The notes under the pieces were generated by a model. That model saw nothing but the letters and a program-made list of their open reading frames with translations. It was not told where the DNA came from and did not search any database. The position numbers and the translations under genes were made by a program. DNA of 64,000 nucleotides. Source: Psilocybe cubensis. Taxonomy: Eukaryota. Of this stretch, positions 31,046 to 54,941 are shown piece after piece. Positions within the stretch are counted from its first letter, which is position 1, and every line of letters starts with the position of its first letter. The stretch lies in the NCBI GenBank assembly GCA_017499595.2, contig CM039001.1:1798001-1862000 (forward strand), in the 5' to 3' direction.

Positions 31046-33032
<1,987 letters not shown>

Positions 33033-33162
33033 GCTTGGTCTGGAGAATTAAGTTGATTGGAAGAAGGGATGTGGATGACAGGTTATAAATTTCCTCCTGG
33101 TGTGGACTTCGTATACCTTGGACAGTAGACCATGTACATTCGGCCAGGCGTAGCAGTCACAT

Positions 33163-34122
33163 TGATATATCACATAGCTATGGCTACAAGTCATTCGTGA
33201 TATATTAACACTTCTAGCTACAAATCCGGGCTATGTGATATATCATATATTTTACACGGCTCTCCCAGCACTTTGGTGATATATCATCCTTTCCTTCATC
33301 CGGCATTATCGGCATCCCCCATCCTTTCCTGCAGGTTATTTGGCCTGATCGCGCCATTTGTTTCATTGGCTTGGCTCCCCCGCCATCAGTTCCATAATAG
33401 GTGCTTGCCGACAGCAGCGCGCGCCCCAGGCCCGCCCCGTGTATGATATATCACTTTCTGTTCATACCAGTGCAGATACACAATCCTGCTTCAATAAAAT
33501 TAGAAATGAGTCATTCAAATCAGCTATCTTTATTGTTACTGCTCGTGGTTAATCTGGTGAATTGCTCTAGGTGCAATCTACGCGGGTACGTAGTCTCTCG
33601 TAGACAGACCTGAACTTTGGAAAGGCCATGCTTACGAGTTAATCACGTGGTCAGACGCGTTTGCTCGCGTTTGTTGTTTGGTTTACACCAAGTTACACTT
33701 GTCTTCTGACATTGTAGTGCTATGCTACCAATAACCAACCCAGAACAATTAGTAAGTTATTTTTTGTGAGCGTTTTTCAATTCCTCTTACTGTCTAATAC
33801 ATATAGAGAATCAGCTTTCTATAGTCTGAGGTCTTTACATAAGTAAGCAGGTAAGTACTCGACTACTGTTTTTACACTCTTTCTATTCACTCAAAGTCGA
33901 CTCAAAGCGTACCATGGAGACGCGTCTCCAGATTCAGTCCCGCCACAGTACTGGCCATTTTTGGCCTGCTTACCACCAACCGGGTACGTTGATGATGTAT
34001 CACTCAACGTTGCGCGCTTCTGATATATCACTTCCTTATGATATATCACCGTTCCGGATGATATATCACTCATCTCACAACTCTATAACCCACGAATCAT
34101 ATGTATTAAAGGTGATATATCA
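33163..34122. repeat. Left subterminal array of TGATATATCA palindromes
   Basis: Copies at ~33163, 33198 (variant), 33236, 33277, 33444, 34021, 34039, 34059, 34113. Confidence 0.85.
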
Positions 34123-34187
34123 TTTACTCTGCTTGGTTGTACTGACATTCCTTTTTAACATCTATTTTACAAGGCATCGCGCACTAT

Positions 34188-36460
34188 TCAGCGGCGCTGT
34201 TTCTTAACCTGTCTAACGGGTGCGCTACCATCAGCTAGAACTACTGCCTTTCTGGCACGCTTTGAAGTGGTTTCACACTCAGGTCCGGTTGTAGGTGTAG
34301 GAAGAGGCGCAGACGCAGGCGGAGGTGGAAAAACTGTCAGAGGGTATTGACCGCTGTGATTGGCAAGTGCTTTACTACGTTTCTTTCTCTTTTGCTCATT
34401 CTCTCGAACCTGGCGTGCCCATGCAGAAGGAACAGCTATGATGACTGGGGTCTCTGCATGATCATGAGTAGTGGAGGTGCAATCATGAGCGGTCGAGGTG
34501 GCGTCTTGCTGTAAGCTTTCTTCCACAGGATTTTGTGATTCCTTGCCTGTATTGCTCACTGACGCCGACTTTTTTGATATACGGCTACCTTTCCCCTTTG
34601 TTTGTTGCTTTTTTTTAGCCTTGGTTGTAGCTGCCGGCCTTGTCCTATCAACAGGAGCCTTCAACGGATTCGGTGCAGGACAAGAAAATGGAATATGGAT
34701 TGCCATTGACTCAGCATGCTGGGGTATCGATGTTGGAACTGGGGCCGTCGACGTTGGAACTGGGGCCGCCAACATTGGAACTGGGGCCGCCAACGTTGGA
34801 ACTGGGGCCGCCAATGTTGGAACTGGGGCCATTGAGGTTGGAATTAGAGCCGTCGATGTTGGAAATGTGGCCGTCGACGTTGGAACTGGGGCTGTTGACA
34901 TTGGAACTGGGGCCGCCAACGTTGGAACTGGGGCCATTGACGTTGGAACTGGGGCTGTCACAGTGGGTTGTTCGATAGCAGGTTGTTCGGCAGTGTGAGT
35001 TGCCATTGGCTCAGCACGATGGGGTATTGATGTTGGGGCAATAGCAGGTGTACGCAGCACAGGATGGATGGGCATTGGCGGAGCTGGGACAGTATTCGAT
35101 TCAACAGCAACAGGTGGTACATTGTTACCACGCAGAACCGGGTCAATGACACTGTCCGATATTACTGAAGGATTGTTCAGGGGCGCATTCAACATAGGAG
35201 GCTCCGGTGCTGGAGAAATCCGATACAAATCGGGGACGCTATTGGGACCAGAAAGCCCTGTTTCAATGCCATCGGAAATGGGATCGCTGGTTATGGCCTG
35301 CTCGTTAGGATATAATGACACTGCCGCTCGATCTTGTGGTGCTATATCATTTCGAAAATCAGTAAGTTATGCAGTCACTTGGGTTAAATTTGTTACTAAC
35401 AGTACTTAGTGTGCAGCCAGCGTCCAAACAGAGGCACAATATTATCGTGCCATTCAGAGTAAGCCTCTTGAAATGTGTGTCCAGCTTCATTTTTGCCTAT
35501 ACAAATGCTGTATTGACTCAGTCAGAAAATTCTGGTTCACGTTTCAGACACAACATTACACTTACGTAGCAACTGCACATTTTCCTCCCTCAATTGGACG
35601 AGGTCCTCCCACCATAAAGACACCCGACCATCCTGTAAGTTCATAAAGATCCTGCCCAACCTCCATCAAGACCGTCTTTATCTGATCGATTGCTCTAAAA
35701 GATATTGTATATTAGTGCAAAGATATAAAAATGAGGTAATCACATACTCTTGTAGTTGCGCGGGTGTCTGCGACTTGTAGGAGAGGGTTTTATGTTCCAA
35801 TGTACGCTGGTTCATTTCCTCTTCCTCTTCCTCTAATGCGCGTTCTATCTCTTGCTGAACCTCTTCCGTTTCATTGGCCCATGCCTCTCGTCGAACTTCT
35901 CGGCGAATTTTAAGATTGAGAGCACGTACATTATCAGGGCTAATGGTGTCGTCTTTCTCTATTGCCAACCGTTCCCTCACCAGGTTTGTTACTTTTTCTC
36001 CATAAATAATGTCATACATTTCCTCTGCATGGTGACGACGATGCTTCTTGGAACTTTTGCTGAACTTCTCCCGCACAGTCCCTTTCAAAACTGGCTTGGC
36101 CGTAACCTTGGACTTTGAGGACTCATTTCGAAACCAGTTGATAATATACTAGAAGACAGATAATGGTAAGTTTGCTATTTCGCAATTTTGTTGCCAAACT
36201 GCACATACTGATTTTCTCTTTTTGATAGCCTCACCAAGTTGTTCATCATATGCCAGATTGTCTAGGTTCTTGGTACCGGCATCGACACTCAATTTCTCTG
36301 CTAAGAGACTGTCGCTTTCCGGAAACTTGATAAAGTAAGCCCCATGAACTTTGGTCCAGAACTCGCTAAACTGTTTATTGGTTGTGCATTGGAGGTATTC
36401 GGGCATCCATGACATTAAAAAAGTGAATTGCTCTTCAGATGTCTTTCGACGAGGTGCCAT
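34188..36460 (-). CDS. KDZ cargo protein with a WFRN-containing N-terminus and a Pro/Thr/Ala repeat C-terminus
   Basis: Exons MAPRRKTSEEQFTFL...YFIKFP...KKRKS/YIINWFRNE...; TGWSGVFMVGGPRP; long last exon 34188-35321. Confidence 0.65.
34725..34960. repeat. 21-bp coding minisatellite (APVPTxx heptad), about 11 copies
   Basis: Repeated GTTGGAACTGGGGCCG(C/T)C(A/G)AC-like units. Confidence 0.9.
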
Positions 36461-36829
36461 TATGGATTTGGATAATAGAAAACAGGGATATGTTATGAGG
36501 TACAACCTTTACACTTTTTTATGTCTGAGTAACGGAACACTACTTTCAGATGGATCTCGATCTTTTGTGGAGCCCTTTGCTGGGTATCTGTGCATGTTGT
36601 AGGCCAGATCTTTTTCTGACATGCAGATCTTCACTTGAACATGCTACTTGGAAGGCACGCCCCAACACTTAAGGATAGAGTCCGGTGATTTAATTTTAAG
36701 TATGAATGCGCCACTTTTTGGTACGTCCAGATAGCCATTCCAGGCCATTCCTGCATAAAAGCTTTGACGTTGGAAATGCACAACAACGTCCTTTGTTCAA
36801 ACTCCCCCCATTAATTACCCTCAAGAACT

Positions 36830-37466
36830 ATGACTAGCTTTGGTACCAACGTCGACCATGCACTTTTAGCTGCCCTAATTGCTTCTATTGATCGCTTATC
36901 CCTTGCGATTGGAAGTAAGCTTTTCATACGCCTGTAGTGGGATTAACGTGATTGACACTGACCTGGTTTCCCTCGTTGTAGATCATACAGCTCTACGCAC
37001 TGTTGTTGATCCTGCTGTTGTTTCTGAATCTGCTGTCCCTTCCGACAAGGAGCAGAATATTCATTTGCCCGATATTCTAGCTATGGCACTACCCGACGTC
37101 TTGTCAAACGTGAGCCTTACTGTTCTTTGCCTGTTTTTGCTATCTTACAAATATTCCGTTCTTCTAGAATACGGGACGCCATCCTGACGTCGTCAAAGCT
37201 GACTTGGCCAAATTCACTGGACCTGTTGATGGACCTTGGTATGCAGTTACTTGTGGCAGAGTACCCGGTATCTACCAACACAGGTGCGCTTGTTGCTAAT
37301 TTTCTGCACGCCCTTTTTTTAATTATATTTTACCAGTGTGGAAGCCAATTACCATACTGACGGAGTTCCTGGCAGTGCGAAGAAAAAGTATGACTCTCAG
37401 GCTCAGGCATTAGAGGCATACAGGTGTGCATATGCCTTAGGTGCAGTCCGCCGTCGTGATATGTAG
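36830..37466 (+). CDS. Small cargo protein with RNase H1 N-terminal (Cauli_VI-like, hybrid-binding) domain and no catalytic domain
   Basis: Spliced C-terminus GPWYAVTCGRVPGIYQH...VEANYHTDGVPGSAKKKYDSQAQALEAY matches the wYaV..Gr.pGiy...G....kkf....eA pattern. Confidence 0.75.
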
Positions 37467-37566
37467 CTGCCTATTACTTGTCGTACAATATGCAAATTAG
37501 ATACAGAAGTGCACGGACTTGTCTCAATATAATTTGCATTGCAAAATATTCCAACTCATATTAATT

Positions 37567-38377
37567 TTACCAATATCTACGATCGCGTTTAATCCTGAGT
37601 AGACGAGCCTCAGCCTGAGAGCGCTCAAAAATTTCGTCCCGTCTAGCCTTGCACTGATCACAATGACAACACTCCCATTCTCCAGTACAGCCGTCACTGT
37701 CTTCATCCTCACTGGCATCTTCGTGTTCACTGTCAGAGATTATGGGGAAAATCTGTGACTCTTCGGCATGCTTCCTTTGACGCTGACTAGAATCAAAGTC
37801 AGTGGATGCATATCATGTACCACGGTGATTCTAACCGTAACTGAGCCAAGGTCAATCCGTCATACAGTCTTGGAGGAGAGGATTGTCGACGAACAGAAGA
37901 CCCTTGTTGACGGGGACTAGAAGATATTTGTTGATGGTGTGAAACTTCTACACTTATATCAATCAAAGCGGTAAATTTTTGAAAATAATAAAATGTATTC
38001 ACCTTCAGATGTAGAACTCTTTCTAGCAGTCAATGGTGTCCTTGTTGCAGGCGTGCTTGTTGCAGAGGAGCTTGCGGTGGTTTGAATATTAGACACAGAG
38101 TTTTGGGTGGGCAGATGCTTGCCGCTTTTTCTATTAAAAACAAAGTTAAATATTCCTTTATGAGTAGAAAAGTAAAAATACCGTGCAGCACGCAATTTCT
38201 GCATTCGAAGCCTGGCACTCTCTTGAAGCGCAGAACGGTTTCTGCATAACAAGGTTTGGTGGAAAGTAGACGGTAAGTGGCCATGCATCGCTACTGATAT
38301 TATGATACTGACTTTGCATAATATTTGCTGCTTGCCACTCTGTGGGATTCTTTCTTTTCTTCCGGTGATTGAACCAT
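37567..38377 (-). CDS. Small cargo protein: basic helix N-terminus, acidic tract, Cys cluster
   Basis: MVQSPEEKKESHRVASSKYYAK/NRSALQESARLRMQKLRAAR/...EDASEDEDSDGCTGEWECCHCDQCKARR...YW*. Confidence 0.55.
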
Positions 38378-38457
38378 GAGAGTAGGAATTAAGAACCTGG
38401 ACATAACTATGAATGTGGAGTTGAAACCACGGACCGGACAATATGATCGCCGATATT

Positions 38458-38928
38458 CATTATTCTGTTCGCGATCATTATTCTGTTCGCGATATGTTCG
38501 CGATTTGTTTGTGATATTCAATTTTTAAGTTGCAAATACACGAGAAGTAATGCTTATTTCAGCTGTAAAAGTACCTACCAAGCATGTCAAAAGCCCATAG
38601 TTCTGATTTTTATATTAATTTGAGTGGCATCGTCAGCTGAACTATAGATTTGAGGGAGCGACACCGATTGCCATTAAACATAACGTACTTCTTATGCACC
38701 ACTGTGTCCATGTCCCAATGTTCTCACTGTTGCATCCCACTTAAGGTCTGGATACCCCGAGTAATGTAGTTCTAAATGAAGGTATTGCAATGTAGATTTG
38801 TTAGTCAAGCTTCAAATTCCGTAAACCATTGAGATATGGCATGAAACTTGGGAACAAACATCAGAAATCGCGAACATATCGCGAACAAATCACTATCGCG
38901 AACTAATAATACTCACGAACTAATAATG
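38458..38928. repeat. Pair of inverted ATCGCGAAC arrays around a ~330-bp spacer
   Basis: 38458-38520 (TGTTCGCGAT x3) is the reverse complement of ~38853-38928, sharing AAATCGCGAACATATCGCGAACA. Confidence 0.75.
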
Positions 38929-39259
38929 CAATGCAACCTCTGTAAACTGTCCAATTCTCAATCTCAACACGCCAATCACACCTTGCATAGCCCAGAGTAC
39001 ACTAACAAGTAATTGACACAAAAAAAAATCTGTATTTGGCGTACTAGTACTTATAATATGTAACAAACATATAATGTACTAGAAACACGCGTACTAGACC
39101 CTTGCAATATATAAAGGGCACACGCACCTTGCTAGCAGAGCATGCGGTTAACCTGCATGAACACAGGCAGAGACTGAATAGCGGATGGTAAGTTGAAGAT
39201 ATTAAAGTATCTGGAGCACACAATTAGCTACGGTGCAGTAGAAAAACTAAAGCATCAAC

Positions 39260-39790
39260 TTACTCGAGTCCCCATCATTCCAGCTCCTGACGAACAATCG
39301 GCTCGACACACTCTTTCTCATGGAAGGTGTTACACAGCTTGGAGCCATACGAGAGCAGGCCCGAGTCCCAGAACGTTGTCTGCCACTGCACAGGTGGCGT
39401 CGTGGGGTGTGCAATGCGTACTGGTGCACCGCCGTCAACTACAAAGGACGCCTGGCTCAGCTGCCCGTTGCCCGTCAGGATTGTGCATATAAATGCAATG
39501 CGCGTGCCTGTGCGGAGGAAGATAGTATTAGTATGTGGTTGAGTTTCGGTGGTGGACTCTTGTGTAGTGTAGGGAAAAGCGCACCTGTGAACCGCATGCG
39601 CGCGCTGGAGTCGATAGTCAACGTTGAGTGCATAGTTCCGTGCCATGGCACCCTTTACACCAAGGCCAGCCTCCTTCGAACTTGCTGTTCAATCCGAGCA
39701 GCCTGTGGTGAGCAAAGAGAGCAACCCATGCGTCAGCAAATGCATTACACATTCGGTACGCTCTAACGAATCTACTCACTTCTGCATGCC
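39260..39790 (-). pseudogene. Captured fragment of a beta-sandwich (carbohydrate-binding-like) protein gene with introns
   Basis: Spliced PWHGTMHSTLTIDSSARMRFT/GTRIAFICTILTGNGQLSQASFVVDGG...FWDSGLLSYGS, then loss of similarity; GTGAGT and GTGCGC...CAG introns retained. Confidence 0.55.
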
Positions 39791-40354
39791 AAAACCTCAC
39801 CCTCCTACTCTGCATTGTCATTAGTGGCACACCAAACGACTCGGATGGGGAGGGAGGGCATGAGTCAGTCAGTCATTCAAACAGCATACACCGCACCCTG
39901 TTGCTTACCATTCTTTTTCCCATCCTACTAGCTTCGTGAAACCCCCCGCTATCATCAGCAAAAGTGACCAGACGCCCAAATGCCTTTGAGGCCTTATAGG
40001 GCAGGTCAATCCTTGATGTGACGTAATTATGTTGCGCAAACATTTGAATAATATTTGGTGGTGTCGAAAACATTTGGAGGGCATTCAAATGCTCCACAAA
40101 CATTTGACATCCCAAAAATGCAGTATAAATTATTTCAGGTTCTTGCAGTGAACACCCAATCATTGGTTTACCATAGAACTTTCAGAGAATGCTTGAGAAA
40201 AATTAAAATGGAGAACAAAACATTGATTTTAAATTGACGTCCACAGCAATGATTGAAGGTCTTTCAAATGCACGCAAAACAAATGAATGGATTCAAATGC
40301 ACTCAAAATGATTTATGCATCAGAAAACCTATTCAACGTACAGATAAGGTAAGG

Positions 40355-43300
40355 TTAAAACTCTGCAAAACCCACGGCTTCTGTATCATCCATATCCCAG
40401 GGCTCCTCCCCATCTTCTCCCACAAAACCTTCATCGTTCTCCTCATCTTGATCTTCTTTCTCTGACTCGTCACTGTTTTCAGACTCTGAAGCGTTCATGG
40501 CAGCCTCTTGCTCAGCTGTAACGGGTAAATCAACTTCTTCTTCGTCATCTAAAGGTTCTTCATCACTGAGGTTGAAGTAGGAACCAAAATACCACGGTCG
40601 CATGCTTCGCGTGTACTCGTTGGTGCCCTTGTGGCCAATACCGTAGCCTAGATAGCGTACAAACATGTCACGATCCACGAAACTTATCATACATTAGCAA
40701 TATGTATCAAATAGAATAAATAAAACAACACAGCGTACCGGTTAACATAATAGAAATTCCAGTCGTGGTCTGGATAGTTGTCATCTTCCCAGTAGGCTTG
40801 CCGAGCAATGGAGGGGGGAAGAAGGGAGTCAGTCATCCCCAAATTAAATGCCGGAATAATATGTGAGGCCCTGAGTATATCGGAGGGGTTGAGGAAGCCA
40901 AACGCATCCGGGGAATCCGAATCAATGAACTTGAGTCGGTCTAATCGGCGTGCAGTCCACCCCGCACGAAAGGCATAGTCGACTTCAAACCATCTTACCC
41001 ACAGAAATTCAAAACGTTGTGTTTTACCTCCGTTATGCTGTATGTCAGCGTCGAAGATACCAAGAACTCGAGCATACGAATAAGGGTGGGCCATAGAGCG
41101 ACCTGAGTCCCCGTCCCGAGAGAGAGTCATGATATTACAATGGTTCCGAGGATTGATAGAATCTTGCTCGCGTCGTACGTCGTAAGTTGTATAGTTGACT
41201 CGCAGGACTTTGTGCAAGTAAATTCGGTCGCTAAGGATGTTCACCTGTGCGCGCTCTTGGTCTGAATATGTACGGACTTGTCCTGTATTCGAATGGCCAA
41301 GTATTCGAGATAATATATGATCTTCGAGGTTAGAAACAAAGTCCTAATGTTTGAGCGAGTATTATTAGCACAGGTTGCAGTAAAGAATGGAGAGAAAATT
41401 ACCTCCGTAACTGCTGGGTCATCACAGTATTCGTTCATAAACTGAAACAAATACAGTTTATGGCGCTTGCTGGTCGATATTTGATGGTGCTCGGACGGTG
41501 AGATAGGAGGGAGACTCTCAGATTCCGAAGCTGAGACGATGTGTGGGGGTTTGATATACGATTTCTTAACACGCGAAGCCCTCGGACGCTTCTTGGACGG
41601 CTGTGCAGTGGCCTGCTTATCCTTTGAAGTTGAATTGGCCTTTTCGCTAGCCTCACTTTCTTCCAGTCTTGAAACCCGTGCAGCAATAGAGCGGAGCAAC
41701 TGCTCACGACGCTCATGACGAGAAATTTGGCGCTCAAACTGAGACCCCTTGTTGCTGCGTACAAAAAACCGTTTGACGCGACGGTGTTCCAATTCGCCCT
41801 GAGAGTAGTTAATATAATGTTGTAGTAACAAAAAATGACATACCCGTTGAGTAGAATAACCCTCTGTTGGGCCAAACATCCAGATAGTCTTGACATAATC
41901 TCCGAGAGCGTGAAGCTTATACGTGAAGAGGTTCAGCATTTTGGAAACCTTCGCATTCAGAGACCCAGGAGCGGTGGGCTTGCCCTTCTTTGCATTATTG
42001 GCGGCACGACGGGCGCGGGCAGCGGTCTCCTTTGGTAGTTCCTTGGTTGCGTACAGCGGACAGATCTTAGAGACAAAAGATCTGAGCTCCTTGCCTAGTT
42101 GACGAGTGGCGACACCAAGTCCTGTAAGCGTGGAGTTGGTATGCATGCGAAGCTTGGCGAGCGCGTGCCATTCACAGAATGTGAAGAGAATGTCTTGAAT
42201 AAATTTATCCTGCGCCGGAGGAAGGAGGCCTTCAAAGACTGGCATGGAGCACTAGATAGAGCATATTAGTGTTCCGTAACGTGGAACGATGGCAAATCAT
42301 TTATACGTACCTGAAGTAAGTCTTCAAAATCTCGGGCTGCAAGCTTGGTCATGTCCGATGCATTGCGGTGGAAACGGCGTATTGTGCTTCGGCCAAACGT
42401 AGACACTTTGCGATATCTATTGGCAGGTGAATGCACGAAATTTAAATGATAATATATAGTACTTACCTCCAGTTGAGACGCTGAACACAGTTGCCACCAG
42501 CGGCCAGAAGAATACGCATCATATGCGTGAAGAAAGACTTCCAAACACCAAGTTCGAACTCGTGTAGGAAGTCAGGTACAAACATGGTATGAAAATTGAA
42601 TCCAAATTTTGAAAGACGTGTTGAGAATGCATTCTACACAAAGGTTAATCGTTGTAAGAAGGGGTAAAATGGATCAACGTACCCGTGTTGGGACGGCCGA
42701 CGTATCCTGAAGGATATCTTCGACACGTGTGCTTTTGACCCCCTTTCCATGTTTGAAGATCCACTTTCGACTATTCTCAACCCTGTCGCGCCGTTGCTGA
42801 TCGTCTTTGCGAATGTGCGAGCGCCGCTGTTGATCAACATGAGTTCCAAGTCCACTTACCCAGCGCTTCTGAATAAAGCACCGAGGACAGACACATTTTG
42901 CGAGGTAGCGGATGGTGGCAAGAAGGACTCTGAAGGTATGACTTGGTACGGCATAGACCAGAGTAAACAAAACAGACTTACTTCTCAGGATAGTCGGCGG
43001 AGTATGTAAAAAACCGGGGAAACACACGACGTATGACACCATCGGCACATTTAATAATGATGCCATGTTCGTAGGCTTCCATGAATTCCTCGTCGAGAAG
43101 AATGAGCCATACGGCATGCATCAGCTCCCGCTTTAGGTGGGTGATTGTTGCTGCCGTTGCTGTCAGACCGTTGTAAGCTTTCATATAGATGTCTTGTAGG
43201 GTTTTGGGCAGCTAGTCACATATATAGTTAAACGAACAGAAAACAGAATGAGAACAATGAACATACCGATGGTAAATACGCAATGTGGTGCGCTGAGAAG

Positions 43301-44694
43301 CTATTGGGATTCGCACGTACGTACTTTGATTGATTGCCAAATAGCAGGTATAACGGCCAGAGTGATGCGTTGCCAAAGTTAGCAAGCTGGGTCGAGTCTG
43401 ACCACAGCATCAACGCAACAATAGCAATTTCGTGGGTATCGCTAAGTTGCGCTTCCTGATTCTGCTGTTTACAAAGATCGACATATTCATCGTAAAATGC
43501 GTCGGAGTTGTAGATCTCCGTAATGACGCGCTCTGGTGGACTCGAGGGCGATGGCTTCCAGAAAAGATGATGCGGTGTGAAATGCCATGATTCCGCGCTT
43601 TCATCCTGAAGGGCGGCCTTGATCGTGCCTACCAAACTCCGATAATAGACATTTGGTACCTCAAGGACTGGTGCTGCATCCTCGGAAGGGTGTAGCGACT
43701 GCTCGCAAGGAAGAGGTATTTTGACAGTTGCATTGATCCAGCCTGCTTCCTGTCTGAACGTTGATTGTGAACTTTCGGGTGCGGAAGTCGCATTGTCCAT
43801 GCGAGCGAGTTCCCGTTTCGCACTAAAGTTCTCCAAATCTTTGACACAGAAATCCTCGGCAAGCAGAACCTCCCGGACCAAGCGATCAAGCTCACCCACG
43901 GATTTCAGGGTAGTATTGCCATAGAACCAATGCATAAGGCGAAAAACCGTAGCATTCAAGAAAGGCGCAAAGCGGTTGGACACAGAAGCTTTGTCTAGGG
44001 ATATTCCCATAACCTTGGCAATCCGAGAACTTGATTCCTTTGGGATAGAGGTCGCCAAGCCAGGTGCATTGCAAAGATTGTCGAGTTCCTCGAAGTCATC
44101 AACCTCCTGTCTGGGAAAAGTTGGATATTCCCGGTACAAACCAAACTCGTTGGGCAGAGTGCGTGTTACGGTGGGTTCAAAAGAAGGAGCCGGCTCCGGA
44201 GTTAGTTCGTGTGGAGAAACAGGCTTTGGAGCAGATCGTCGGACTCGAGGAATGGGGGGAGGCATATGAGGTATACGGGTCGACGAGTTGGGTAAAAAGT
44301 CAACATGTTTTTTGGGATATTTACGTACACGTCCCAAACGCGTAGGAGGAGGGACAAACCCCTCAGGAAATGGGTCAGGGGGATCAGATCTTGGAGGCAA
44401 AATAACACCGTCGTCGATATTCTCGTAGGTCATAGAAACATCCTCCCATTCGGCATCCTGAAAGTATTCATTTGTCAGTATAATGTGTGTCGAAGCGGTG
44501 GACCATACCTTATTGAGTTCATGATTAACGGTGGTGTCAATCTTGACACGCTTCGCACTTCCAGTATCCCGGTCAACATCAAGCGGCTTGCAGACATTTT
44601 CAAGGTCTGCTTGCACAGCAGCACAGGTGATGCGGTGAATTCGAACTGCGTGCTTTGTTTTGAATGTCTTCTCGCAAGCATCGCAAATGACCAT
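40355..44694 (-). CDS. Plavaka transposase, multi-exon, N-terminal C2HC zinc finger
   Basis: ALMLWSDSTQLANFGNASLWPLYLLFGNQSKY, CADGVIRRVFPRFFTYSADYPEK, CVCPRC, DFLHEFELG, YKLHALGDY, NYTTYDVRREQD, FLWVRWF, FVDRDMFVRYLG. Confidence 0.92.
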
Positions 44695-44914
44695 GATGAT
44701 AAGAAACAACAAAATAGAATGCCGCATTGCAGCATGCAATGCGCATGGAGACAAAAAAGAGGTCAAGAAGGTAATATTGACCAGAAAACACGCGTCGCGA
44801 CGCATCAGAAAAGATCACGTGTCCGTTCTCAACGGGCTTTTTCGGAAAACCTGAAACCTTTTGCCCTGTCCCATCACCATCTCCCTACTCTGCAACCACC
44901 TACCTCGGGATTCC

Positions 44915-47061
44915 ATGGCTCCAGCCTCACAGATTCACACTGCAGACGCACAACCCCCACATTCCACTCAGCATGCAAAATCTCGAGAATCAATCAGCAG
45001 CAGTGACGGCAGCAATGAAGACAGCAGCGGCTCGGATACTGACCAAGACCATAAAGAAGAGGTGGTTATCAAAAAGCGCAAGAAGGCTTTGAAGGTTACG
45101 TTTCGTAAAAGGGCCTCTCGCAAAAAATTAAAGTCTTCGTGCGTATTGTGTTTTTTCAAGTTTAAGTTTACTACTGAATGCGCATTGCTGTCACCTAGCG
45201 CGGTACTCGAGCCCTTTATGCACCATTCGGCATGGCACATTCGCAATGGTGCTATCTACACCAACTGGGAACACGTTATTCTCACCGGCTTGAAGGCCGA
45301 GCAGGGGAAATTTGGCTCTCTTACACAGCAGGAGTAAGTAACTTTATTATTTACCCGATTTGGTCTCTTTTGTTTAAACTTTTTACTACTTTAGGTTTGC
45401 GGAGAAGCACAAAAAAGCACTTTCGGCTTACGACGATCTGCGAGCGGCTATTCCCACCTTTGACGATGATATAAAGGTCATCGCAAGGGACCCCGCTTAC
45501 CTAGACAGACTGTGCAAAACGGTATGAGTACCTATTTCTCATACACGTACATCTAATGTCCTATTCAGATGGTTACTGCCGCCGGAACCGCTCGTTCTAA
45601 CGACATCTCAAGCCTCAAGAAGGATGCACTTACCTATGCAGCACTGTGCCTGCCTGATGGTCGCCTGGATCCTCCCATTAACCCAAACGACTCCAAGAAG
45701 ACGACCCGAGGCTTCAAGCACCCGCAACTTGGTGCGCTTTTAGTTCCCGCCGCCTGCTTTGAACAGTATCAAAATGATCCCGAGTAAGTCACCCGTATTT
45801 ATATGCGTGTCATACTGATTTTGTTTTTGAGGTATCGTCGCAATCTCTCTCTCAACAAGGTTGTTATCAAGGCAAAGGCAATGCCACACCTGGTGTATCC
45901 GTATGGTAAGTACGACCCCGAGCATGTATTGGAAGGGATGTTCATGGCTCCGGCCTTGGTCGCGGTGCGTATTTTGTGTTGCTGTCTTCAGTACTACTTA
46001 CGCATGTTATCAGGTTTTTCAACATATATTTATGTCGCCATCCTCGGCGCTGAAGACACCTGGCATTACACGGACCGGACATGGGAAGGCTCGCAAGCAT
46101 CACATGAAGTCAGTTACGATACCGAGCATTGCATATGCATGCACACATGTACGTGTTTTTTTCCACATGTTGTATATACTAACCATGTCATCAGTATCGG
46201 TACGCTATTTCGGGATGTATGGACTGGCGTCAGAACGATAGGCATTTCAACTACGAAGAGTTCTACATGGAGGTTGTAAAAATGCTGGAGTGGGCTCGAG
46301 AAAATGATCCCGAGTGGTGGAAAGACTTTGTTACATGGTGGAACGCGTGCGTAGTTTCTTTTTTACAATTAAATTATATAACTCAAACAGTTCATCCTAG
46401 GCAAGTTTTCCCTGTCGAAGACGACTCCGTTACCGAGAGCAGTTCATCTGACGAAGAGATGACTACGTCTACCTTCAAGAAAATGAAGGCACAGGTGAAG
46501 GCCAGCCGTGCAGCGAGGGATATTCCTGCCAACTCTGCACCACCACCACCACCACCATCTCAATATCAGCGCGAGATGTTGTCGCCATCGCCGCCCTTGT
46601 CGTTAAGGCCTGTTCAGTCTCCGGCACCGGGTTCATCTATTCCACCAAGTGTAGGTATTCCTGGCCGGCAGCACCATGCTCAATACCTTGCCGGCCCAGT
46701 GGACGCCAACATTGACCCCCGTTTACAGATCCCAGGTCCTCATGTTGCTAGCAACCACCCACCTCTCGGTGGACCTTCTCGATATCCTGCAGGTGTTCCT
46801 CTGTTTTACAACTCATCGCACCCTATTGCTAGTGCCTCCACTCCGGCTCCGGCTCTGTCTCGTGGTCATCCAACCCCGCGCGCACTCTCTTCCAGTGTCT
46901 ACACTCAACAGTTCAATAATTCTCCGGAATGGCAGCTGGAGAATACCTACGACGAGTCATACTTTGCCGACCACACAAGGAAGAAGAACCATATTGGTCA
47001 TCGTCATCCCAGTGTAGGTCCCCAGATGAATCCGGTCTTCCCTGACATAACAAACTGGTAA
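44915..47061 (+). CDS. DUF6698-like accessory protein, divergent from the Plavaka transposase
   Basis: RGFKHPQLGALLVP, YDPEHVLEGMF, IFMSPSS, VTIPSIAY, FNYEEFY, WWKDFVTWWN...VF; Pro-rich tail. Confidence 0.7.
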
Positions 47062-47701
47062 GCTCACCTAATCATTCTGCAAGTTATCATTACTGATAAG
47101 GCTTTAGATTCAACTGCTACTATTATTCTCTTGGTGCTCTGGCCTCTCTCGCTACTGTCAACTTCTCGTTCTTGCTCGGCTCTCCTCTCACTCATGTTGC
47201 ATTTTGGACTTCTCGGCGACAGCTCTGGCTTCCATTCGACGGCGAAAATCATGTAATTATAGTCTGCTTGCATTCTGTTTGCTCGGTTACCTGTACTTGT
47301 AGCCTCCCTGTCTGTATTGTTATTTTTTAAATTGCAATTTCGCTTTCCATTGTTTATTACTGTGTGTGATGGCCTGAAGTAGCCGCTAGGAATAAGGGTA
47401 CCCAAGAAATGTGCATTGAGTGAATCCCAAATGATTTTGGGTCTCCTAAATGTTAGATAAATGATATTGGGACCCTCAAATGTTATCCAAATGTTTCATG
47501 TACTCTTAAATGTTGCGGAATGATTTGGCTATATTTAGTACTACCTAAAACATTTGCTTTGAATAAAGAATTCGAAGCCTTTCAGTCTTCGGAGTCTCTC
47601 GTTACGAACCGCACAATGCCTTTCGGGCATTGGGGCCTTTGGACGCCTCCAAATGCCTTGTCAAGGCATTTGGGGATCCGGACACTTTTGCTGATGATCG
47701 C

Positions 47702-48273
47702 CCTCGTGTCACAACACGATCCCAACTTGACGAGTTGCGTTGTCGTACACGACGCGCCTTGTTGGGAATGCCCTGACGAGGTGTGTCAGCATCGTTATCT
47801 ACACCCCACCTTGCTCGGATACCCATATTCGATACAACACGCCCCACTCTGACACTATGCCAGTTTCGGATGCCATATTGACGCAGATTCTGGCCCAGTT
47901 GGAGGCAATGCAAGTCTCCCAGCAGACTATGCAGGCAAAAGTACGTTACCTGACTTCATTGCTCCACGATGTTGTTAATAAAGTCTCAATTTCAGCTCGA
48001 TGCACCCTCTTCTCCTCTGGAACCTAAATCCATGAAGGGCCTCCCAAATCTCGCTACACCAAGCACCCCGCCTAGGGAAGGTGCATCAACTTCGACGCAG
48101 ACGGACGATGCCAAGGAGAGCGCAGTATCAGTGCAGGCGCAATCCACAAGGGCCGCCCTTTCCAGCGCACCTCCCTCACTTAGACCTGGCGCAGCGAGCC
48201 TTACAGACAAAGAGCGGGAGAAGCTCCTCGTGTCACAACACGATCCCAACTTGACGAGTTGCGTTGTCGTACA
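47702..48273 (+). repeat. Perfect 48-bp direct repeat (47702-47749 and 48226-48273)
   Basis: CCTCGTGTCACAACACGATCCCAACTTGACGAGTTGCGTTGTCGTACA twice. Confidence 0.95.
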
Positions 48274-48310: not shown

Positions 48311-48364
48311 CGAACTGTGAGCACTTGTAAGTTACCTATGCAGCTGACATTACATTCTTACTCA

Positions 48365-49486: not shown

Positions 49487-49536
49487 GCATAGAAAACATG
49501 CTAGAACAGTGTCAAAATTGTATATAATCTGTTACA

Positions 49537-50570
49537 ATGGCATTTGGTAATCTAGTACCCACAAATTATGAATTTACGTTCAAGCACAAGTACGTTCCAT
49601 TGTTTCTATTAATAGATCTTTACTTATTGACTACAGAAAAAGCAGCGGCTGGACGTATTGGCATATTCATGGATTATTCTATTCAGAAACCCCAGAAACC
49701 CCTAGAAACCCCTAGAAACCCCAGGGGTTTCTGAATAGTCCTCGAAGCAACATTCTAAACCCCTGCTTGAACATTTATGGGAGGTTTAAGGTCCGACCTA
49801 GCTTTGCTGGTCTGCCGTGTCGTGCCGTCGTTGTTGCCTTTGAATCAATAGTTGATCGTCTTCATGTAAATACATTCAATTGTTCAATTCCGGTACGCTA
49901 ACGCCTCTAATGCAACCCATAGTGCCAATAAAACTCAACAAACCCATTCAGGAACCTTCGAGTCGTTTAATGGTTATTTATTCGAAGGGATATCATATTT
50001 GATGTTTATGAACACCGAGGTAGGGCATCCAGAGCACTATAAGATACAGGAAGTAGAGAGTATAGCAGTGGTGTTAGGTACAAGGAAATACATTATACAT
50101 AGGTTTCTAGGCTTTTAAGTTGTTCACTTACTGCTTTTTTCATTTTCGAGCGAAGTTGCGCCTACGCACCCGAGTGGCCACTTGAAATGGCCCGCATGAG
50201 AATACAAGCTCCTACTTAATCCGCCGTAGCGGCATTCTGAACATTCATCACACCTTCATCACAACATTCATAACGATTTTATGAATTTTGAGGGTTTCTA
50301 TGGGGTTTCTAGGGTTTCTGGGGTTTCTGAATAGAATAATCCCATATTCATACTGCCATTCCCTAATGATGGAGTTCTATATCTAACATATGAGCAAATA
50401 CAGTAAGTACTTTCAAAGATATTTGTTTGTACTATTCTAATTTAAACAGAGAAATTGCTTTGGTGTGTGTCCAAGAGCAAATTCGGTCAGGGCAGCTTAG
50501 CATGCATGAGATTCTATATACGGAGCTACTGCCTGGTCATGAGGGCGATTCGGCGGGAAGTAAACATTGA
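49537..50570 (+). pseudogene. Small cargo ORF disrupted by the MITE
   Basis: Removing the MITE and one TSD joins ...EKAAAGRIGIF to ILPFPNDGVLYLTYEQI, then an intron, then EIALVCVQEQ...GSKH*. Confidence 0.45.
49671..50342. mobile_element. Non-autonomous Mutator-like (MULE) MITE, 672 bp
   Basis: 9-bp TSD CATATTCAT (49662-49670, 50343-50351); ~50-bp TIRs GGATTATTCTATTCAGAAACCCCAGAAACCC...; no coding capacity seen. Confidence 0.88.
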
Positions 50571-50678
50571 TAATTGAGTGATTAGTGGACAAAGTTGGTA
50601 ATATTAATGTGGCAAGTTGAAGTAGCTAGCAACCTAACTTGCCCTTTCCCCCTCAATGCCCAATAAGCCTCTCTAGCT

Positions 50679-53600
50679 ATGCTTCGATCTACACGTCCTA
50701 AGTCCAAACGTGAACGGGCGCGGGAGAGAAACCATAACTCAGACTTTACTGTCATTAGCAACAGCTCTATATCAACACCAGAACCGCTGTCAGCATCTTC
50801 TAACATTGAAGTCTTGCATCGTCATGAAACTGTCAACGCTTCCTCTGATCATCGCGCTTCTGCAACATTCAAAAATAGATATTTTGGAATATTCCAGTCA
50901 CTTACTGATGAGGCAACTTGGCGCCGTTTGGGTACTCGGTCCCGATTAACTGAACCCCTCATTGACGTTGATATTCTTGATTACCATGACTTTGATCTGG
51001 CTGACTTGGGATTTGAGCCATTGGACCCACTTTGGAGTGACAATATTGACGAGGACTCCCCTGATGATGGCGTAGCACGCAAAAAACCCAGAATCTCACA
51101 AACGGCATGTTTTGATTGGCAGAATTAATTTAGTAATCAAATATTGACCGTTGATTTTTTTAGGATAATCCATTGAAGAACTGGGTTGAACAAGACAGAG
51201 ATCGTGACCTACAAGAAATCCTTCGCCTTGATGGACGAGGCGACTATTCAAATCACTCGAGCTGTTATCAATGCAAAATTAATGATGCCTTGTATCAGTG
51301 TCTTGACTGTGATCGGATTGAGATGTTTTGTAATGCTTGCATTGTGGGAAATCATTTAGCCAATCCTCTTCATCGTATCAAGGTATGTGGTTTCTAATAT
51401 TTACATGAAATTACTGATTTTTTTACTACTGTAGAAGTGGAATCAGCAATATTTTGAACCGACAACACTGAAGTCTTTAGGACTTCGAGTCCAATTGGGT
51501 CACATGATAGGTCAAAAATGTGTCAATCCACGTGCTTCTCCAGGGAATGGTTTCACGGTTGTTGACTCGAATGGCATTCATGATATTTCTCTTGACTTCT
51601 GTGACTGCGAGACAGCTCAATCTCATGCCATCCAGATTCTCCGAAAACGATGGTTTCCATCTACCGGCACATATCCGAAAACCGCAGCGACAATGCGAGT
51701 TTTGAAGCAATTCCATTTACTTGCTTTTGAATCTAAACTTTCGTCATACGAGTTCTACAATAGCCTTGTACGAAACACTGATAATACAGGACTAGGAACT
51801 GATAAGGTAAGAATTATATCTAATCTTCTAGTGATATGAAATATCTAATTGTACACATGAATGATTAGGATTGCTACGATGAATTTACCCGAATGTATCG
51901 GAAATGGACCAACTTGACAATGGCCAAACGTGCTGGTCGAGGCCATGACAGCCGTGGCGTCAATGCAACGCAGCCTGGCGAATGTGCCCTTCTTTGTCCT
52001 GCTTGCCCTCAGCCTGGAAAAAATCTTCCTTTGGGATGGGAAAATGAGCCGCCAGAAAAGAGGTAAGTACCATTGCCCGTTTAATGAGCCTATATTGACA
52101 TTGAAGCAGTTGGATCTATGGACTATTCCTTGCTATTGACGCCAACTTCCGCCTTACTCGCCGTCATGTTTCATCAGAAGATCGGGATCCAGGCCTTGGG
52201 AATGGCTGGGCATTCTTTGTTCAGAATATACCATACCAGGAACACCTAAAAAGGTTTTGGGACTATAAGCAGCCGGTAAGCATTGAAACCGTACCTTCAA
52301 TCTATCTTGCAGTAATTTATGGTATTCTAGAAAAGCACGTGTGTAAATCATGAAGCTTGCAACAATTCCGAAAAAGAGGTTCAAGGAAAATCAGTAACTG
52401 GAGGGGGTACCGTTGATTGTGCGCGTCATAATTTCAAGCGACCCTGTGGATTTGGTGATCTTCAAAAAGGTGAAAGGTAAGTTCAATCCTAATTTATTCA
52501 ACGACTCGGACTACATTGATTAACCCATTTTAAGATATCTAAATATGGACTACATGTTTTTTTCGAGTATCATGCGAACAGCTGTCAAGCGCATTTTTGT
52601 TTCTTATGACATTGCATGCCAGTGGTACAAAAATATCTGGCAACGAATGGGGACCATGCTTCCGGCACCAATGCACATCTCGTCATCTGTTGACAATATT
52701 CAGTTTCTTGTTCCCAAATTCCATATTGCGGCACACATTCAGGAATGTATTCTCAAGTTTTCCTTCAATACAACCAAATATGTCGGCCGGACGGATGGAG
52801 AAGCCCCAGAACGTGGATGGTCGGCTACGAATGCCCTCGCAACAAGCACGCGAGAAATGGGACCGGGCTTTCGACGCGATACTCTGGATGACCACTTTAA
52901 TGACTGGAATTGGAAAAAGATTACGGGCCTTGGTAAGTGATAGCGTCATCAGCAATTTTTTTTATCTAATCTATTGTAACAAATCAGGAGCGTCTCTTCT
53001 CAAAAAGATCAAGAAGGCTGTTCCTCAAGCAGCGGAACATATGTCCCAGCGTCGGCAGTTTGAAAGTGTGCTACCAACAGACGATATCAAAAAGTGGACG
53101 CAGGAAGTTGAGCTATGGGAATTGTCAAAGTCATCGCCAAATCCATATCAAGCCCTAGTAAAAAGTATGCGCAACACGAAGTTTGATAGCGATATTTGAA
53201 ACTAATCTTATTCTCAATTTTTAGGTATGACCGAAGCAGAAGTTCGCCTTCTTTTGGCACAAAAGGCTGCCGCTACCCAGGACGAGGATGTTGTCCATTC
53301 AAATGTGCACCCGAGCATACTAATATCTCAAGGACTACAGTTGGAGGAACAGCAGTGCGTTGCCGATTATGTCCCTCCTATTGTTACTGTGTTTTCTAAT
53401 GCCTGAAATATTAGACGAAAACTTGCTAGAGAAGTCAATGCACTCGGTCAGCACGCAACACCAAGTCAAATACGGGTCATTCAGGAATCCTCCAATAAGC
53501 TTCGGCGAAGAATAACAGCATGGACCGAGGTACAATCTCTCTACATGCCACATGCTGCGGTACTCAGGCAAAAAGATGCTTCGGCAATGCTTCTACCTGG

Positions 53601-54522
53601 CGGTTCTCCCTCAGTCAAGACAGAAAACCTCCCATTATACCTTCCATCTTCATTCGGAAGCAACATGCCATGCGATCCGTCCCTCCGAATCTTTGAATGG
53701 CAGCTTCGACAAGGACAAGCCTTTGATGCCCTCCACGAAATCCGACAAAATCTTCGAGTTGCCAGCCACTATATCAAACATAAGAAACGCTTTTCTCGTG
53801 GAGTCGCTCAGAATACTCGTTCAAATACAACCATCAAAACATTTCAGGAGAAGGCAGATCACGCCGGTGAGAAGTATCGTGTTGCAAGAGCTGCTATGGT
53901 GCATCTCAGTGCACATGTTGGCGATCTTGCACATCCTGGGTGGCAGAGCGAGTTGAAGCCGCTTAGAGAAGAAGACATGCGGAATATTTCTGAGGGTCAG
54001 AAAGGCGAGACGGATGGAAGAAGAACGATATCTTGGATATGGCTAACAGAGGGCGTGTCTGCTATTGAAGAAAAAGACAAACGTATGCACGAAGGTGAGA
54101 ACCGTTTTTGTAGCTGAAGCAATACAATGATCTGATTATCACAACTCTGCACACTCTTAGCCCTTCGTATTGAGTGGTGTCACAACCGTGCTCGTGCGAT
54201 GCGATGGAGTGAAGAAATTGTGCTTCTTCAAGAAGAAATGAGACGGACATTGGCCTTTTTTGAATGGCAGGCTAACTGGTGGACTAACTGTGGAGGCTCG
54301 CTAGAGCATGTTCAAGACAAAGTCACGAAAGAAGGGTTAGTTGCTTATCGCCAACGTCAGGCAGCTTTGCGGCTTACATTACGTGACCGATTTGCTGAGA
54401 ACTGGAAAGATGTCAGTTCATGGGTGGCTTGGGGTGAGGCCAAAAGTCAGTTGGAAGAACTGGATGATCTTGACAACGAGATAGCAGTAGTAGATAGTAT
54501 AGATAATACGAATCTGCATTGA
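50679..54522 (+). CDS. CxC2-KDZ transposase, multi-exon
   Basis: CxC2-like FCDC...WFPST...PKTAAT...FYNSLVRNTDNTG; CPACPQPGKNLP; core LAIDANFRL, GDLQKGERYLNMDY, VSYDIACQW, VPKFHIAAH, GRTDGEAPERGWS; C-terminal LRIEWCHNRARAMRWSEE. Confidence 0.93.
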
Positions 54523-54711
54523 ATTCACACAGGGCATGAACGTACACAATATGAATGGCGGCATTATTCCTCGCTCCATCCCGCCTTTTCCCAAAACAAG
54601 CATTCCCGAAACTGGGCCAAGCAAATTCTATATAGCACTGAACAAACAACAGGACGGACTTGATATCTGAGTCTTAAAGAATGATTGCATGTAAGCGCAA
54701 CTACAGGTGGG

Positions 54712-54791
54712 TGATATATCACGACTAGGTCTCTAACTAGAGTACCACATATATCACGAATTTCCTATGATGAGAGATAAATGATATATCA
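54712..54791. repeat. Right subterminal TGATATATCA palindromes
   Basis: Copies at 54712, ~54748 (variant) and 54782 mirror the left-end spacing. Confidence 0.85.
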
Positions 54792-54941
54792 ACGTATCAG
54801 CTAGTGGTGATTCGGCGGTTTCATAACACCAATTGGAAGAATGACACCATATATAGAATCTATCTATTTCGGGTTGCGGCCCGTCATAACCAACTTTTTT
54901 ACATTTTCTTGGCAAGGTTTGGCCTCCCACACCTAAACCAC

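What the first reader, a model, noticed from the sequence alone, without database searches (positions are those of the whole stretch)
33138..54816. A complete ~21.7-kb multi-gene KDZ transposon with readable ends and a 7-bp TSD
Seen: ATTCGGC flanks both sides. The ends are CA...TG, with TAGC 6 nt and TGATATATCA 18 nt from each end, and further ATTCGTGATATAT and GTGATATATCA blocks at near-mirrored spacing, while the sequence between blocks has diverged. A CxC2-KDZ transposase with D/D/E motifs lies at the right end. Known: KDZ transposons are abundant in Agaricomycetes and occur with accessory genes. Inference: this is one mobile unit of about 12 kb after subtracting nested inserts, carrying a transposase and about five cargo genes, with termini defined by spaced motif blocks rather than a continuous TIR.
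Basis: partly seen in the sequence, partly recalled or inferred. Interest (0 to 1): 0.88.

Follow-up and report, generated by a model that had tools for sequence, protein, structure and literature searches.

The report
Complete Kyakuja-type KDZ transposon, strain-polymorphic
This is a real, intact DNA transposon of a recently described mushroom family (Kyakuja/KDZ) that sits between two housekeeping genes in this strain but not in other strains, so it is a good but not surprising example of a known kind.

Summary
A 21,665-bp insert (33145-54809) lies between an AGC-kinase gene and an SPB4 helicase gene. It starts CA and ends TG, and the same 7 bases (ATTCGGC) flank both sides. Its first about 100 bases on each side align in register as spaced blocks. 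All 10 exact TGATATATCA sites in the 64-kb window lie in its two terminal regions. At the right end is an intact 11-exon CxC2-KDZ transposase gene. Assemblies of other strains show the insert is mobile. Three lack it at this site: their right-flank contigs match from exactly 54810 and then run on elsewhere. Reads of a fourth strain do not cover the element's own sequence. Two of the three strains hold a 99.8%-identical copy at single-copy depth. That copy lacks a nested PlavakaB element (39953-47696) and a nested MITE (49671-50342), so the basic element is 13,238 bp. The 7-bp duplication, CA..TG ends and absence of long inverted repeats match what Kojima (2025) published for Kyakuja. This is therefore a new member of a known kind. 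"About five cargo genes" is not shown: I confirmed one 680-aa gene without known domains, and two gene-like stretches belong to the nested Plavaka. No TET/JBP gene is present.

The parts
33138..33144 (.). Left copy of the 7-bp target-site duplication, ATTCGGC
   Evidence: Read directly; identical to 54810-54816.
33145..54809 (.). Whole insert: a Kyakuja-type KDZ transposon of 21,665 bp including its nested inserts, or 13,238 bp without them
   Evidence: CA..TG ends, the duplication and the in-register terminal blocks. Absent at this site in X6, X9 and X11; its own sequence is not covered by X12 reads; present as a single copy elsewhere in X9 and X11.
33145..33247 (+). Left terminal region: CA, TAGC (7-10), TTGATATATCA (18-28), ATTCGTGATATAT (49-61), TCTAG, GTGATATATCA (91-101)
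   Evidence: 63 of 102 columns identical to the right end and 70 of 103 to the metagenome end L004; about 30% identity beyond that.
33163..34122 (.). Left subterminal array of the 10-bp palindrome TGATATATCA: 8 exact sites plus 2 one-mismatch sites. It includes an inverted, end-like cluster at 33993-34122.
34191..36460 (-). Cargo gene of 5 exons and 680 aa, with no known domain. Its C-terminal half holds a 7-aa repeat encoded by a 21-nt tandem repeat at 34685-34997.
   Evidence: Database protein P0121 threads onto the window for 679 of 680 residues. No Pfam family. Atlas look-alikes are Basidiomycota hypothetical proteins, which is a lead only.
38484..38887 (.). Small element bounded by 23-nt perfect inverted repeats. 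It is part of the transposon in all copies seen.
   Evidence: Inverted repeat I5. X9 and X11 contigs run through it without gaps, and X12 reads show foldback joints there.
39953..47696 (-). Nested PlavakaB transposon of 7,744 bp, with CATCA..TGATG ends and a 2-bp duplication AT at 39951-52 and 47697-98. It carries a Plavaka transposase (minus strand) and a DUF6698 gene (plus strand).
   Evidence: Pfam hits and the ends read directly. The joint 39950->47697 in X9 and X11 shows a copy without it. Loose ends at 39953 and 47696 lead into many different flanks in X12. The ends and duplication match published PlavakaB.
47702..48273 (.). Two perfect 48-bp direct repeats (47702-47749 and 48226-48273) around a 476-bp segment. 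The part 47801-48225 has a copy elsewhere in a strain that lacks the transposon.
   Evidence: Direct repeat D4. X6 record 12 and the X11 loose end at 48225.
49671..50342 (.). Nested 672-bp MITE with 51-nt inverted repeats and a 9-bp duplication CATATTCAT at 49662-70 and 50343-51
   Evidence: Inverted repeat I1 and the sequence itself. The joint 49661->50343 (681 skipped, 9 ambiguous) in X9 and X11 shows a copy without it.
50679..54522 (+). CxC2-KDZ transposase gene: 11 exons, 1067 aa, intact
   Evidence: Pfam CxC2 and KDZ. P0001 threads for 1067 of 1067 residues. All columns conserved at 95% or more for D, E, C or H among 107 homologues are kept.
54709..54809 (-). Right terminal region, carrying the same blocks as the left end in inverted orientation
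54810..54816 (.). Right copy of the 7-bp duplication. Right-flank contigs of strains without the insert begin to match exactly here.
   Evidence: X6, X9 and X11 contigs of 49, 62 and 30 kb match 54810-55900 with 0 differences.

Best explanation
The interval 33145-54809 is one cut-and-paste DNA transposon of the KDZ superfamily, and by its structure it belongs to the Kyakuja lineage. Its own DDE-type transposase, with an N-terminal CxC2 zinc-cysteine domain, is encoded next to the right end. I infer that the transposase recognises the roughly 100-bp terminal regions, most likely through the repeated 10-bp palindrome TGATATATCA and the TAGC and ATTCG blocks. I also infer that it cuts at the CA and TG ends and inserts into a 7-bp staggered cut, whose repair duplicates ATTCGGC. 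The element entered the short spacer between an AGC-kinase gene and an SPB4 helicase gene. Afterwards it was itself hit by a PlavakaB transposon and a MITE. What is shown: the ends, the duplication, the intact transposase gene, absence of the insert at this site in other strains, and a near-identical copy without the nested inserts elsewhere in two strains. What is inferred: which motifs the protein binds, the cutting chemistry, and that the element can still move.
For: (1) Ends and duplication. (2) All 10 exact TGATATATCA sites of the window lie in the two terminal regions, against 0.06 expected. (3) The transposase carries CxC2 and KDZ domains. Its complete 1067-aa product is encoded by 11 exons with no break. 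It keeps D403, D511, E575 and E578 and every other column conserved at 95% or more among 107 homologues. (4) The flanks are host genes: Pkinase and Pkinase_C up to 32981, and DEAD, Helicase_C and CTT_SPB4 from 55323. (5) Polymorphism: of the words of window:31645-33644, run X6 holds 0.76, which matches the 1,500 flank bases out of 2,000. X9 and X10 hold 0.97, X11 holds 0.93, and X1-X5 hold 1.00. (6) On window:35901-55900, X6 contigs and X12 raw reads give essentially no depth on the element's own parts (35901-39235 and 50575-53909). In X6, X9 and X11 the only contig on the right flank matches from exactly 54810 to 55900 with 0 differences. Each of these contigs continues for more than 16 kb on the other side without matching the element. 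(7) X9 and X11 still hold the element at the same depth as the flank (23.5 against 22.3; 88.3 against 86.4). They differ by 1-2 letters in 4,050 and 5-7 in 4,363. Joints 39950->47697 and 49661->50343 remove the two nested inserts. (8) A metagenome contig (L004) carries a homologous end that starts at the same CA and has the same blocks in register, with 70 of 103 columns identical to the left end. (9) Kojima 2025 (PMC12730594, section 3.2.1 read) states that Kyakuja elements make 7-bp duplications, end 5'-CA..TG-3' and have no inverted repeats. Zisupton and Dileera make 8-bp duplications.
Against: The letters that follow 54810 in the insert-free contigs were not printed, because the list was cut. 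The left junction lay outside the 20-kb stretch I could lay. So a single ATTCGGC at the empty site is inferred, not read. The place where X9 and X11 hold their copy, and its flanking 7 bases, were not seen, so no second duplication supports the 7-bp rule here. Kyakuja membership rests on structure only; I built no tree with labelled Kyakuja, Dileera and Zisupton transposases. The left side has an extra inverted cluster of sites at 33993-34122 that looks like a degenerate end, and I cannot explain it. Binding of the transposase to the motifs is untested.
Confidence: 0.9

Rival explanations
1. The element is a KDZ transposon of the Dileera or Zisupton lineage, or of an unnamed lineage, rather than Kyakuja. 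The 7-bp duplication would then be a family peculiarity.
For: I made no labelled phylogeny. The CxC2 stretch also matches CxC1 weakly (E 6e-07), and the Cryptococcus Dileera-clade elements carry CxC1.
Against: The papers read give Zisupton and Dileera 8-bp duplications. The Cryptococcus elements have 139-241-bp inverted repeats. Here the duplication is 7 bp and there is no long inverted repeat. No SWIM or CxC4 domain is on record for the protein.
Confidence: 0.08
2. The 21.7 kb is not one unit. Under this reading a short non-autonomous relative (33145 to about 34140) and a separate element happen to lie side by side, and the matching 7-mers are a coincidence.
For: The cluster at 33993-34122 resembles an inverted end: AAGCAG at the right distance from a TGATATATCA, followed by more sites.
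Against: That cluster lacks the terminal CA, has different spacing, and is followed by ACTGACA rather than ATTCGGC. No left-end-like sequence follows 34140. The flanking 7-mers match 7 of 7. Other strains lack everything up to 54809 at this site.
Confidence: 0.04
3. The ends belong to another superfamily, for example hAT7 (which also makes 7-bp duplications) or a CACTA-like element, and the KDZ gene is only a passenger.
For: Kojima 2025 describes hAT7 families with 7-bp duplications, and CA..TG ends are common in the CMCT clade.
Against: Six-frame Pfam scans of all DNA outside the KDZ gene and the nested Plavaka found no family. ORF scans found only KDZ, CxC, Plavaka and DUF6698. The Plavaka has its own ends with a 2-bp duplication and is absent from the copy in X9 and X11. 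The hAT7 families were reported from rusts.
Confidence: 0.02

Closest known systems
Kyakuja-1_LB and Kyakuja-2_LB, and other Kyakuja families of Agaricomycotina (Kojima 2025, PMC12730594; sections 3.1.1 and 3.2.1, figure legends and passages read; supplements not seen)
   Same: 7-bp target-site duplication, 5'-CA..TG-3' ends, no long terminal inverted repeats, an Agaricomycete host, and a KDZ-type transposase.
   Different: The published families were found through their TET/JBP gene. This element has none. Here the ends show about 100 bp of in-register conserved blocks and a repeated 10-bp palindrome. The text I could read does not mention such features, though Figure 1 and the supplementary sequences may show them. 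Clade membership of the transposase was not tested.
Cryptococcus KDZ1, KDZ2 and KDZ3 (Huang et al. 2024, PMC11588098; preprint 10.1101/2025.05.19.654958; passages read)
   Same: Large KDZ transposons (9-11 kb) with a CxC-KDZ transposase plus extra ORFs without known domains. Their mobility is shown by insertions that differ between strains.
   Different: They have 8-bp (4-8 bp) duplications, long inverted repeats of 139-241 bp, a CxC1 domain, Dileera-clade placement and a yeast host. Their movement was caught experimentally, whereas here it is inferred from strain comparison.
Zisupton (cited in Kojima 2025; KDZx1 in PMC11588098)
   Same: The same KDZ transposase superfamily.
   Different: 8-bp duplications and CxC4 plus SWIM domains. 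Neither is found here.
En/Spm (CACTA) subterminal repeat regions (recalled, not from a call)
   Same: It works similarly: short ends plus arrays of a short transposase-binding motif in both orientations, and unequal arrays on the two sides.
   Different: A different transposase superfamily and a 3-bp duplication. This is an analogy only.

Membership tests
KDZ transposon superfamily | Transposase with the KDZ catalytic domain (PF18758) | tested here: met
   E 1.2e-42, 146.5 bits against a cut-off of 26.6. The conserved acidic columns are kept.
KDZ transposon superfamily | N-terminal CxCn zinc-cysteine domain | tested here: met
   CxC2 PF18803, E 4.4e-44, covering positions 1-107 of the 107-position profile.
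KDZ transposon superfamily | Defined ends with a target-site duplication | tested here: met
Kyakuja lineage | 7-bp target-site duplication | tested here: met
   ATTCGGC on both sides. Homology in insert-free strains starts at 54810. This rests on one insertion only.
Kyakuja lineage | 5'-CA..TG-3' ends without long inverted repeats | tested here: met
   The insert starts CAGG and ends GGTG. Only 40 of 60 terminal bases are identical, arranged in blocks.
Kyakuja lineage | Transposase groups with Kyakuja reference proteins in a tree | not tested
   The reference proteins are in supplements or in a paper not held.
Kyakuja lineage | TET/JBP dioxygenase cargo (frequent but not defining) | tested here: not met
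   No TET_JBP or any other family in the six-frame scans or in the ORF scans.
Zisupton / Dileera | 8-bp duplication; long inverted repeats (Cryptococcus Dileera); CxC4 plus SWIM (Zisupton) | tested here: not met
   The duplication is 7 bp, there is no long inverted repeat, and the only domains are CxC2, CxC1 and KDZ.
hAT7 | hAT transposase with a 7-bp duplication | tested here: not met
   No hAT domain anywhere in the insert.
PlavakaB (the nested insert only) | Plavaka transposase, 5'-CATCA..TGATG-3' ends, 2-3-bp duplication | tested here: met
   PF18759, E 3.8e-13. The ends and the AT duplication were read directly. Multi-copy loose ends lie at 39953 and 47696.

The most novel reading that the evidence does not exclude
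This may be a currently mobile, autonomous, TET-less Kyakuja element. It sits at different places in closely related strains with about 99.8% identity, and its recognition code can be read directly. That code is a roughly 100-bp end made of conserved blocks, plus an asymmetric array of the palindrome TGATATATCA (about 10 sites on the left, 3 on the right), bound by the CxC2 domain. If so, it would be the first Kyakuja element whose transposition and DNA-binding sites could be tested at the bench.
Probability: 0.45. Interest if true: 0.5.

Novelty: new member of a known kind. Interest (0 to 1): 0.4.

Why it matters
Kyakuja elements were given ends and a duplication length only in late 2025, and only for copies that carry a TET/JBP gene. 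This locus offers four things. It is a clean, complete copy without that gene. Its transposase gene is intact. It shows natural presence/absence and position differences between strains. It also has a candidate binding motif that is conserved in an unrelated environmental contig. Together these make a practical starting point for testing how KDZ transposases recognise ends that lack long inverted repeats. It also flags a 13-22-kb structural polymorphism next to two housekeeping genes in this mushroom. None of this overturns current knowledge.

Tried and rejected
No whole genome is held for this window, so the ends could not be searched genome-wide. Earlier notes of this scan held nothing, either by sequence or by place. 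The first read-laying request was one base too long, so I shortened it by one base. Only one stretch of 20 kb or less could be laid. The metagenome scan with a degenerate end pattern returned 15 loci; 14 look like chance matches (no CA, a single site) and only L004 is a relative. Iyer et al. 2014 is not held, so which CxC type goes with which KDZ clade remains recalled and is not used as evidence. A search for CxC2 or Kyakuja listed only the KDZ papers already read. Searches for papers holding Psilocybe with KDZ, and Kyakuja with subterminal, found none. I considered reading 33145-34140 as a separate MITE and rejected it. A homology search for the cargo gene found only its own database entry. 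Atlas look-alikes are unnamed Basidiomycota clusters and are a lead only. X9 and X11 contigs both stop at 54705, 104 nt short of the end. This may mean the last 100 nt are shared with another sequence in those genomes, but I could not check it.
Full report
WHAT IS THERE. The window reads ...CCATGTAC ATTCGGC | CAGGCGTAGCAGTCACATTGATATATCA... at 33138-33172 and ...TGATATATCAACGTATCAGCTAGTGGTG | ATTCGGC GGTTTCAT... at 54782-54824. The insert therefore runs from 33145 to 54809, which is 21,665 bp. It starts CA, ends TG, and is flanked by the same 7 bases on both sides.

Laid against each other without gaps, the left end and the reverse complement of the right end share 20/30, 40/60 and 60/120 bases. 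None of 200,000 random pairs from the window reached these values for n=30, 60 or 120. The matches fall in blocks at the same distance from each end:
- CA at positions 1-2;
- TAGC at 7-10;
- TTGATATATCA at 18-28;
- ATTCGTGATATAT at 49-61;
- TCTAG near 70;
- GTGATATATCA near 90-100, with a 4-nt offset between the two sides.

Identity is 63 of 102 columns over the first 100 bases and falls to about a third beyond that. The 10-bp palindrome TGATATATCA occurs 10 times in the 64-kb window, and all 10 are in this insert's terminal regions: 8 between 33163 and 34122, and 2 at 54712 and 54782. The expected number is 0.06. The 7-mer ATTCGGC is not rare in itself (12 matches against 7.05 expected). What counts is that it abuts both ends as defined by the alignment.

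SURROUNDINGS. To the left, a plus-strand gene with Pkinase and Pkinase_C domains ends near 32981. To the right, a plus-strand DEAD, Helicase_C and CTT_SPB4 helicase gene starts by 55323. Without the insert, the spacer between these two genes would be a few hundred bases.

CONTENT.
(a) A transposase gene lies at 50679-54522 on the plus strand. Its ORF pieces hit CxC2 (E 4e-44) and KDZ (E 1e-42). The database protein P0001 (1067 aa) is named by its source as a hypothetical protein of Psilocybe cubensis and has CxC2, CxC1 and KDZ on record. It threads onto the window letter for letter, 1067 of 1067 residues in 11 exons. In an alignment of 107 homologues of 800-1250 aa, chosen from the 120 listed, it keeps every D, E, C or H column conserved at 95% or more. 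These include D403 (AIDANF), D511 (SYDIAC) and E575/E578 (TDGEAPERGW). That these are the catalytic D/D/E is my reading, not a tool result.
(b) One cargo gene lies at 36460-34191 on the minus strand. It has 5 exons and 680 aa (P0121, 679 of 680 residues threaded). It has no Pfam family. Its C-terminal half is a 7-aa repeat encoded by a 21-nt tandem repeat. Its only look-alikes are unnamed Basidiomycota clusters (a lead only).
(c) A nested PlavakaB transposon lies at 39953-47696. It has a Plavaka transposase (E 3.8e-13) on the minus strand, a DUF6698 gene on the plus strand, CATCA..TGATG ends and a 2-bp duplication AT. This matches the published description of PlavakaB.
(d) A nested 672-bp MITE lies at 49671-50342, with 51-nt inverted repeats and a 9-bp duplication CATATTCAT.
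(e) Six-frame Pfam scans of everything else (33145-39951 and 47697-50690, with stops read as X) found no family, so there is no TET/JBP gene.

EVIDENCE FROM OTHER STRAINS. A search for public runs holding window:31645-33644 (1,500 flank bases plus 500 element bases) listed 13 runs:
- five runs hold all words and are flagged as possible sources (X1-X5);
- X6 holds 0.76, which is what the flank alone would give;
- X9 and X10 hold 0.97, and X11 holds 0.93;
- two runs hold small shares (0.11 and 0.08);
- two runs are raw reads that stand in no index.

I laid X6, X9, X11 (contigs) and X12 (raw reads) on window:35901-55900 at 90% likeness, and 4 of 4 runs were laid.

X6 has depth 0 on the element's own parts: 35901-39902, 48574-49240, and 50575-54576 apart from 1.19 in one bin. 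X12 has essentially none there (0-4). Both cover the Plavaka, the MITE and the right flank.

In X6, X9 and X11 the right flank is covered by one contig each, of 49,246, 62,451 and 30,125 bases. Each matches 54810-55900 with 0 differences and begins to match at exactly 54810. Each then continues for more than 16 kb on the far side without matching the element. The summed depth of the flank bin equals that single contig's depth, so no second allele is hidden. The site is therefore unoccupied by this element in those three strains, and ATTCGGC belongs to their flank.

X9 and X11 nevertheless hold the element at the same depth as the flank (23.5 against 22.3; 88.3 against 86.4). They show 1-2 differences over 35901-39950, 1 over 48244-49670, and 5-7 over 50343-54705. 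They must therefore carry it somewhere else. Their copy lacks the Plavaka (joint 39950->47697, 7,746 skipped, 3 ambiguous letters) and the MITE (joint 49661->50343, 681 skipped, 9 ambiguous letters). The element without later inserts is thus 21,665 - 7,746 - 681 = 13,238 bp.

The Plavaka ends are confirmed independently. X12 has 265 and 268 reads with loose ends at 39953 and 47696 leading into different sequences (agreement 0.37 and 0.39). X11 holds Plavaka copies with 0 differences to this one, at about 2.5 times single-copy depth.

A RELATIVE ELSEWHERE. One scan of metagenome contigs with TAGCNGNNACNTTGATATATCA gave 15 loci, and fourteen look like chance matches. One, L004, reads ...CAGTCATT | CAGGCCTAGCTGTGACTTTGATATATCA... 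It shares the CA start, the TCTAG block and a second TGATATATCAC in register, with 70 of 103 columns identical to the left end. Its flank encodes an 821-aa ORF; its Ulp1-like and DDE motifs are my reading of the translation, not a tool result. Homology starts at the same CA, which supports the end position. The blocks are conserved while the spacers are not, which suggests the blocks are functional.

COMPARISON WITH WHAT IS KNOWN. [quoted passage not shown] The same paper gives Zisupton and Dileera 8-bp duplications. The Cryptococcus KDZ1-3 elements have 8-bp or 4-8-bp duplications, 139-241-bp inverted repeats and CxC1 domains, and carry extra ORFs without known domains (passages read). The Marasmius oreades genome paper says the inverted-repeat motifs of KDZ and Plavaka elements are in its supplementary Figure S3, which I could not see.

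The present element meets the structural hallmarks of Kyakuja. I did not test its place in a transposase tree, because Iyer 2014 is not held. No held paper combines Psilocybe with KDZ, or Kyakuja with subterminal.

HOW IT MOST LIKELY WORKS. The steps shown are an autonomous element with an intact DDE-type transposase gene, defined ends, a 7-bp duplication, and different positions in closely related strains. The steps inferred are as follows. The transposase binds the terminal blocks and the TGATATATCA array, perhaps through its CxC2 domain. It cuts at CA and TG. It then integrates into a 7-bp staggered break. The left side has many more sites than the right: 8 exact plus 2 near-exact over 1 kb, against 3 within 100 bp. 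This includes an inverted, end-like cluster at 33993-34122 that has no CA and a different spacing. I cannot say whether that cluster is a relic of an old end or part of the working subterminal region.

WHAT REMAINS OPEN. The letters beyond 54810 in the insert-free contigs were not printed. The other location in X9 and X11 and its duplication were not seen. The number of real cargo genes is unknown; only one was confirmed.

VERDICT. This is a new, well-preserved and probably recently active member of a known kind, not a new kind.

Noticed in passing
window 39953-47696: A nested PlavakaB transposon of 7,744 bp, with CATCA..TGATG ends and a 2-bp duplication AT. It carries a Plavaka transposase and a DUF6698 gene. 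Other strains hold copies with 0 differences at several times single-copy depth. One strain (X12) also has a 6,225-bp internal-deletion form (joint 41013->47239). The family therefore looks recently active.
   Followed up: yes
window 49671-50342: A 672-bp MITE with 51-nt inverted repeats (GGATTATTCTATTCAGAAACCCC...) and a 9-bp duplication CATATTCAT. It is multi-copy in all four runs laid and absent from the transposon copy in X9 and X11. A 9-bp duplication suggests a Mutator-like origin (recalled, not tested).
   Followed up: partly
window 47702-48273: Two perfect 48-bp direct repeats bracket 476 bp. The part 47801-48225 has a roughly 97% copy elsewhere in a strain that lacks the transposon, and it starts with what reads like a first exon (MPVSDAILTQ...). 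It may be a captured fragment or a local duplication.
   Followed up: partly
window 47519-47678: A 160-bp piece inside the Plavaka's right subterminal region has about ten times single-copy depth in all runs. Its loose ends agree with each other (0.95 at 47519), so it is shared with a more abundant repeat family.
   Followed up: no
window 33993-34122: An inverted cluster of five TGATATATCA-type sites lies 850-980 bp inside the left end. It carries AAGCAG at the end-like distance but has no terminal CA. It may be a relic end or part of the subterminal region.
   Followed up: partly
window 38484-38887: A small element bounded by 23-nt perfect inverted repeats rich in TCGCGAAC units. Reads of another strain show foldback-type joints there.
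   Followed up: no
window 34685-34997: A 21-nt tandem repeat of about 15 units encodes a 7-aa proline/alanine/threonine-rich repeat in the cargo protein.
   Followed up: no
L004 1-3654: A metagenome contig holds a homologous transposon end (3519-3654) next to an 821-aa ORF; its Ulp1-protease-like and DDE motifs are my reading of the translation, not a tool result. This suggests another fungal mobile element beside it.
   Followed up: partly
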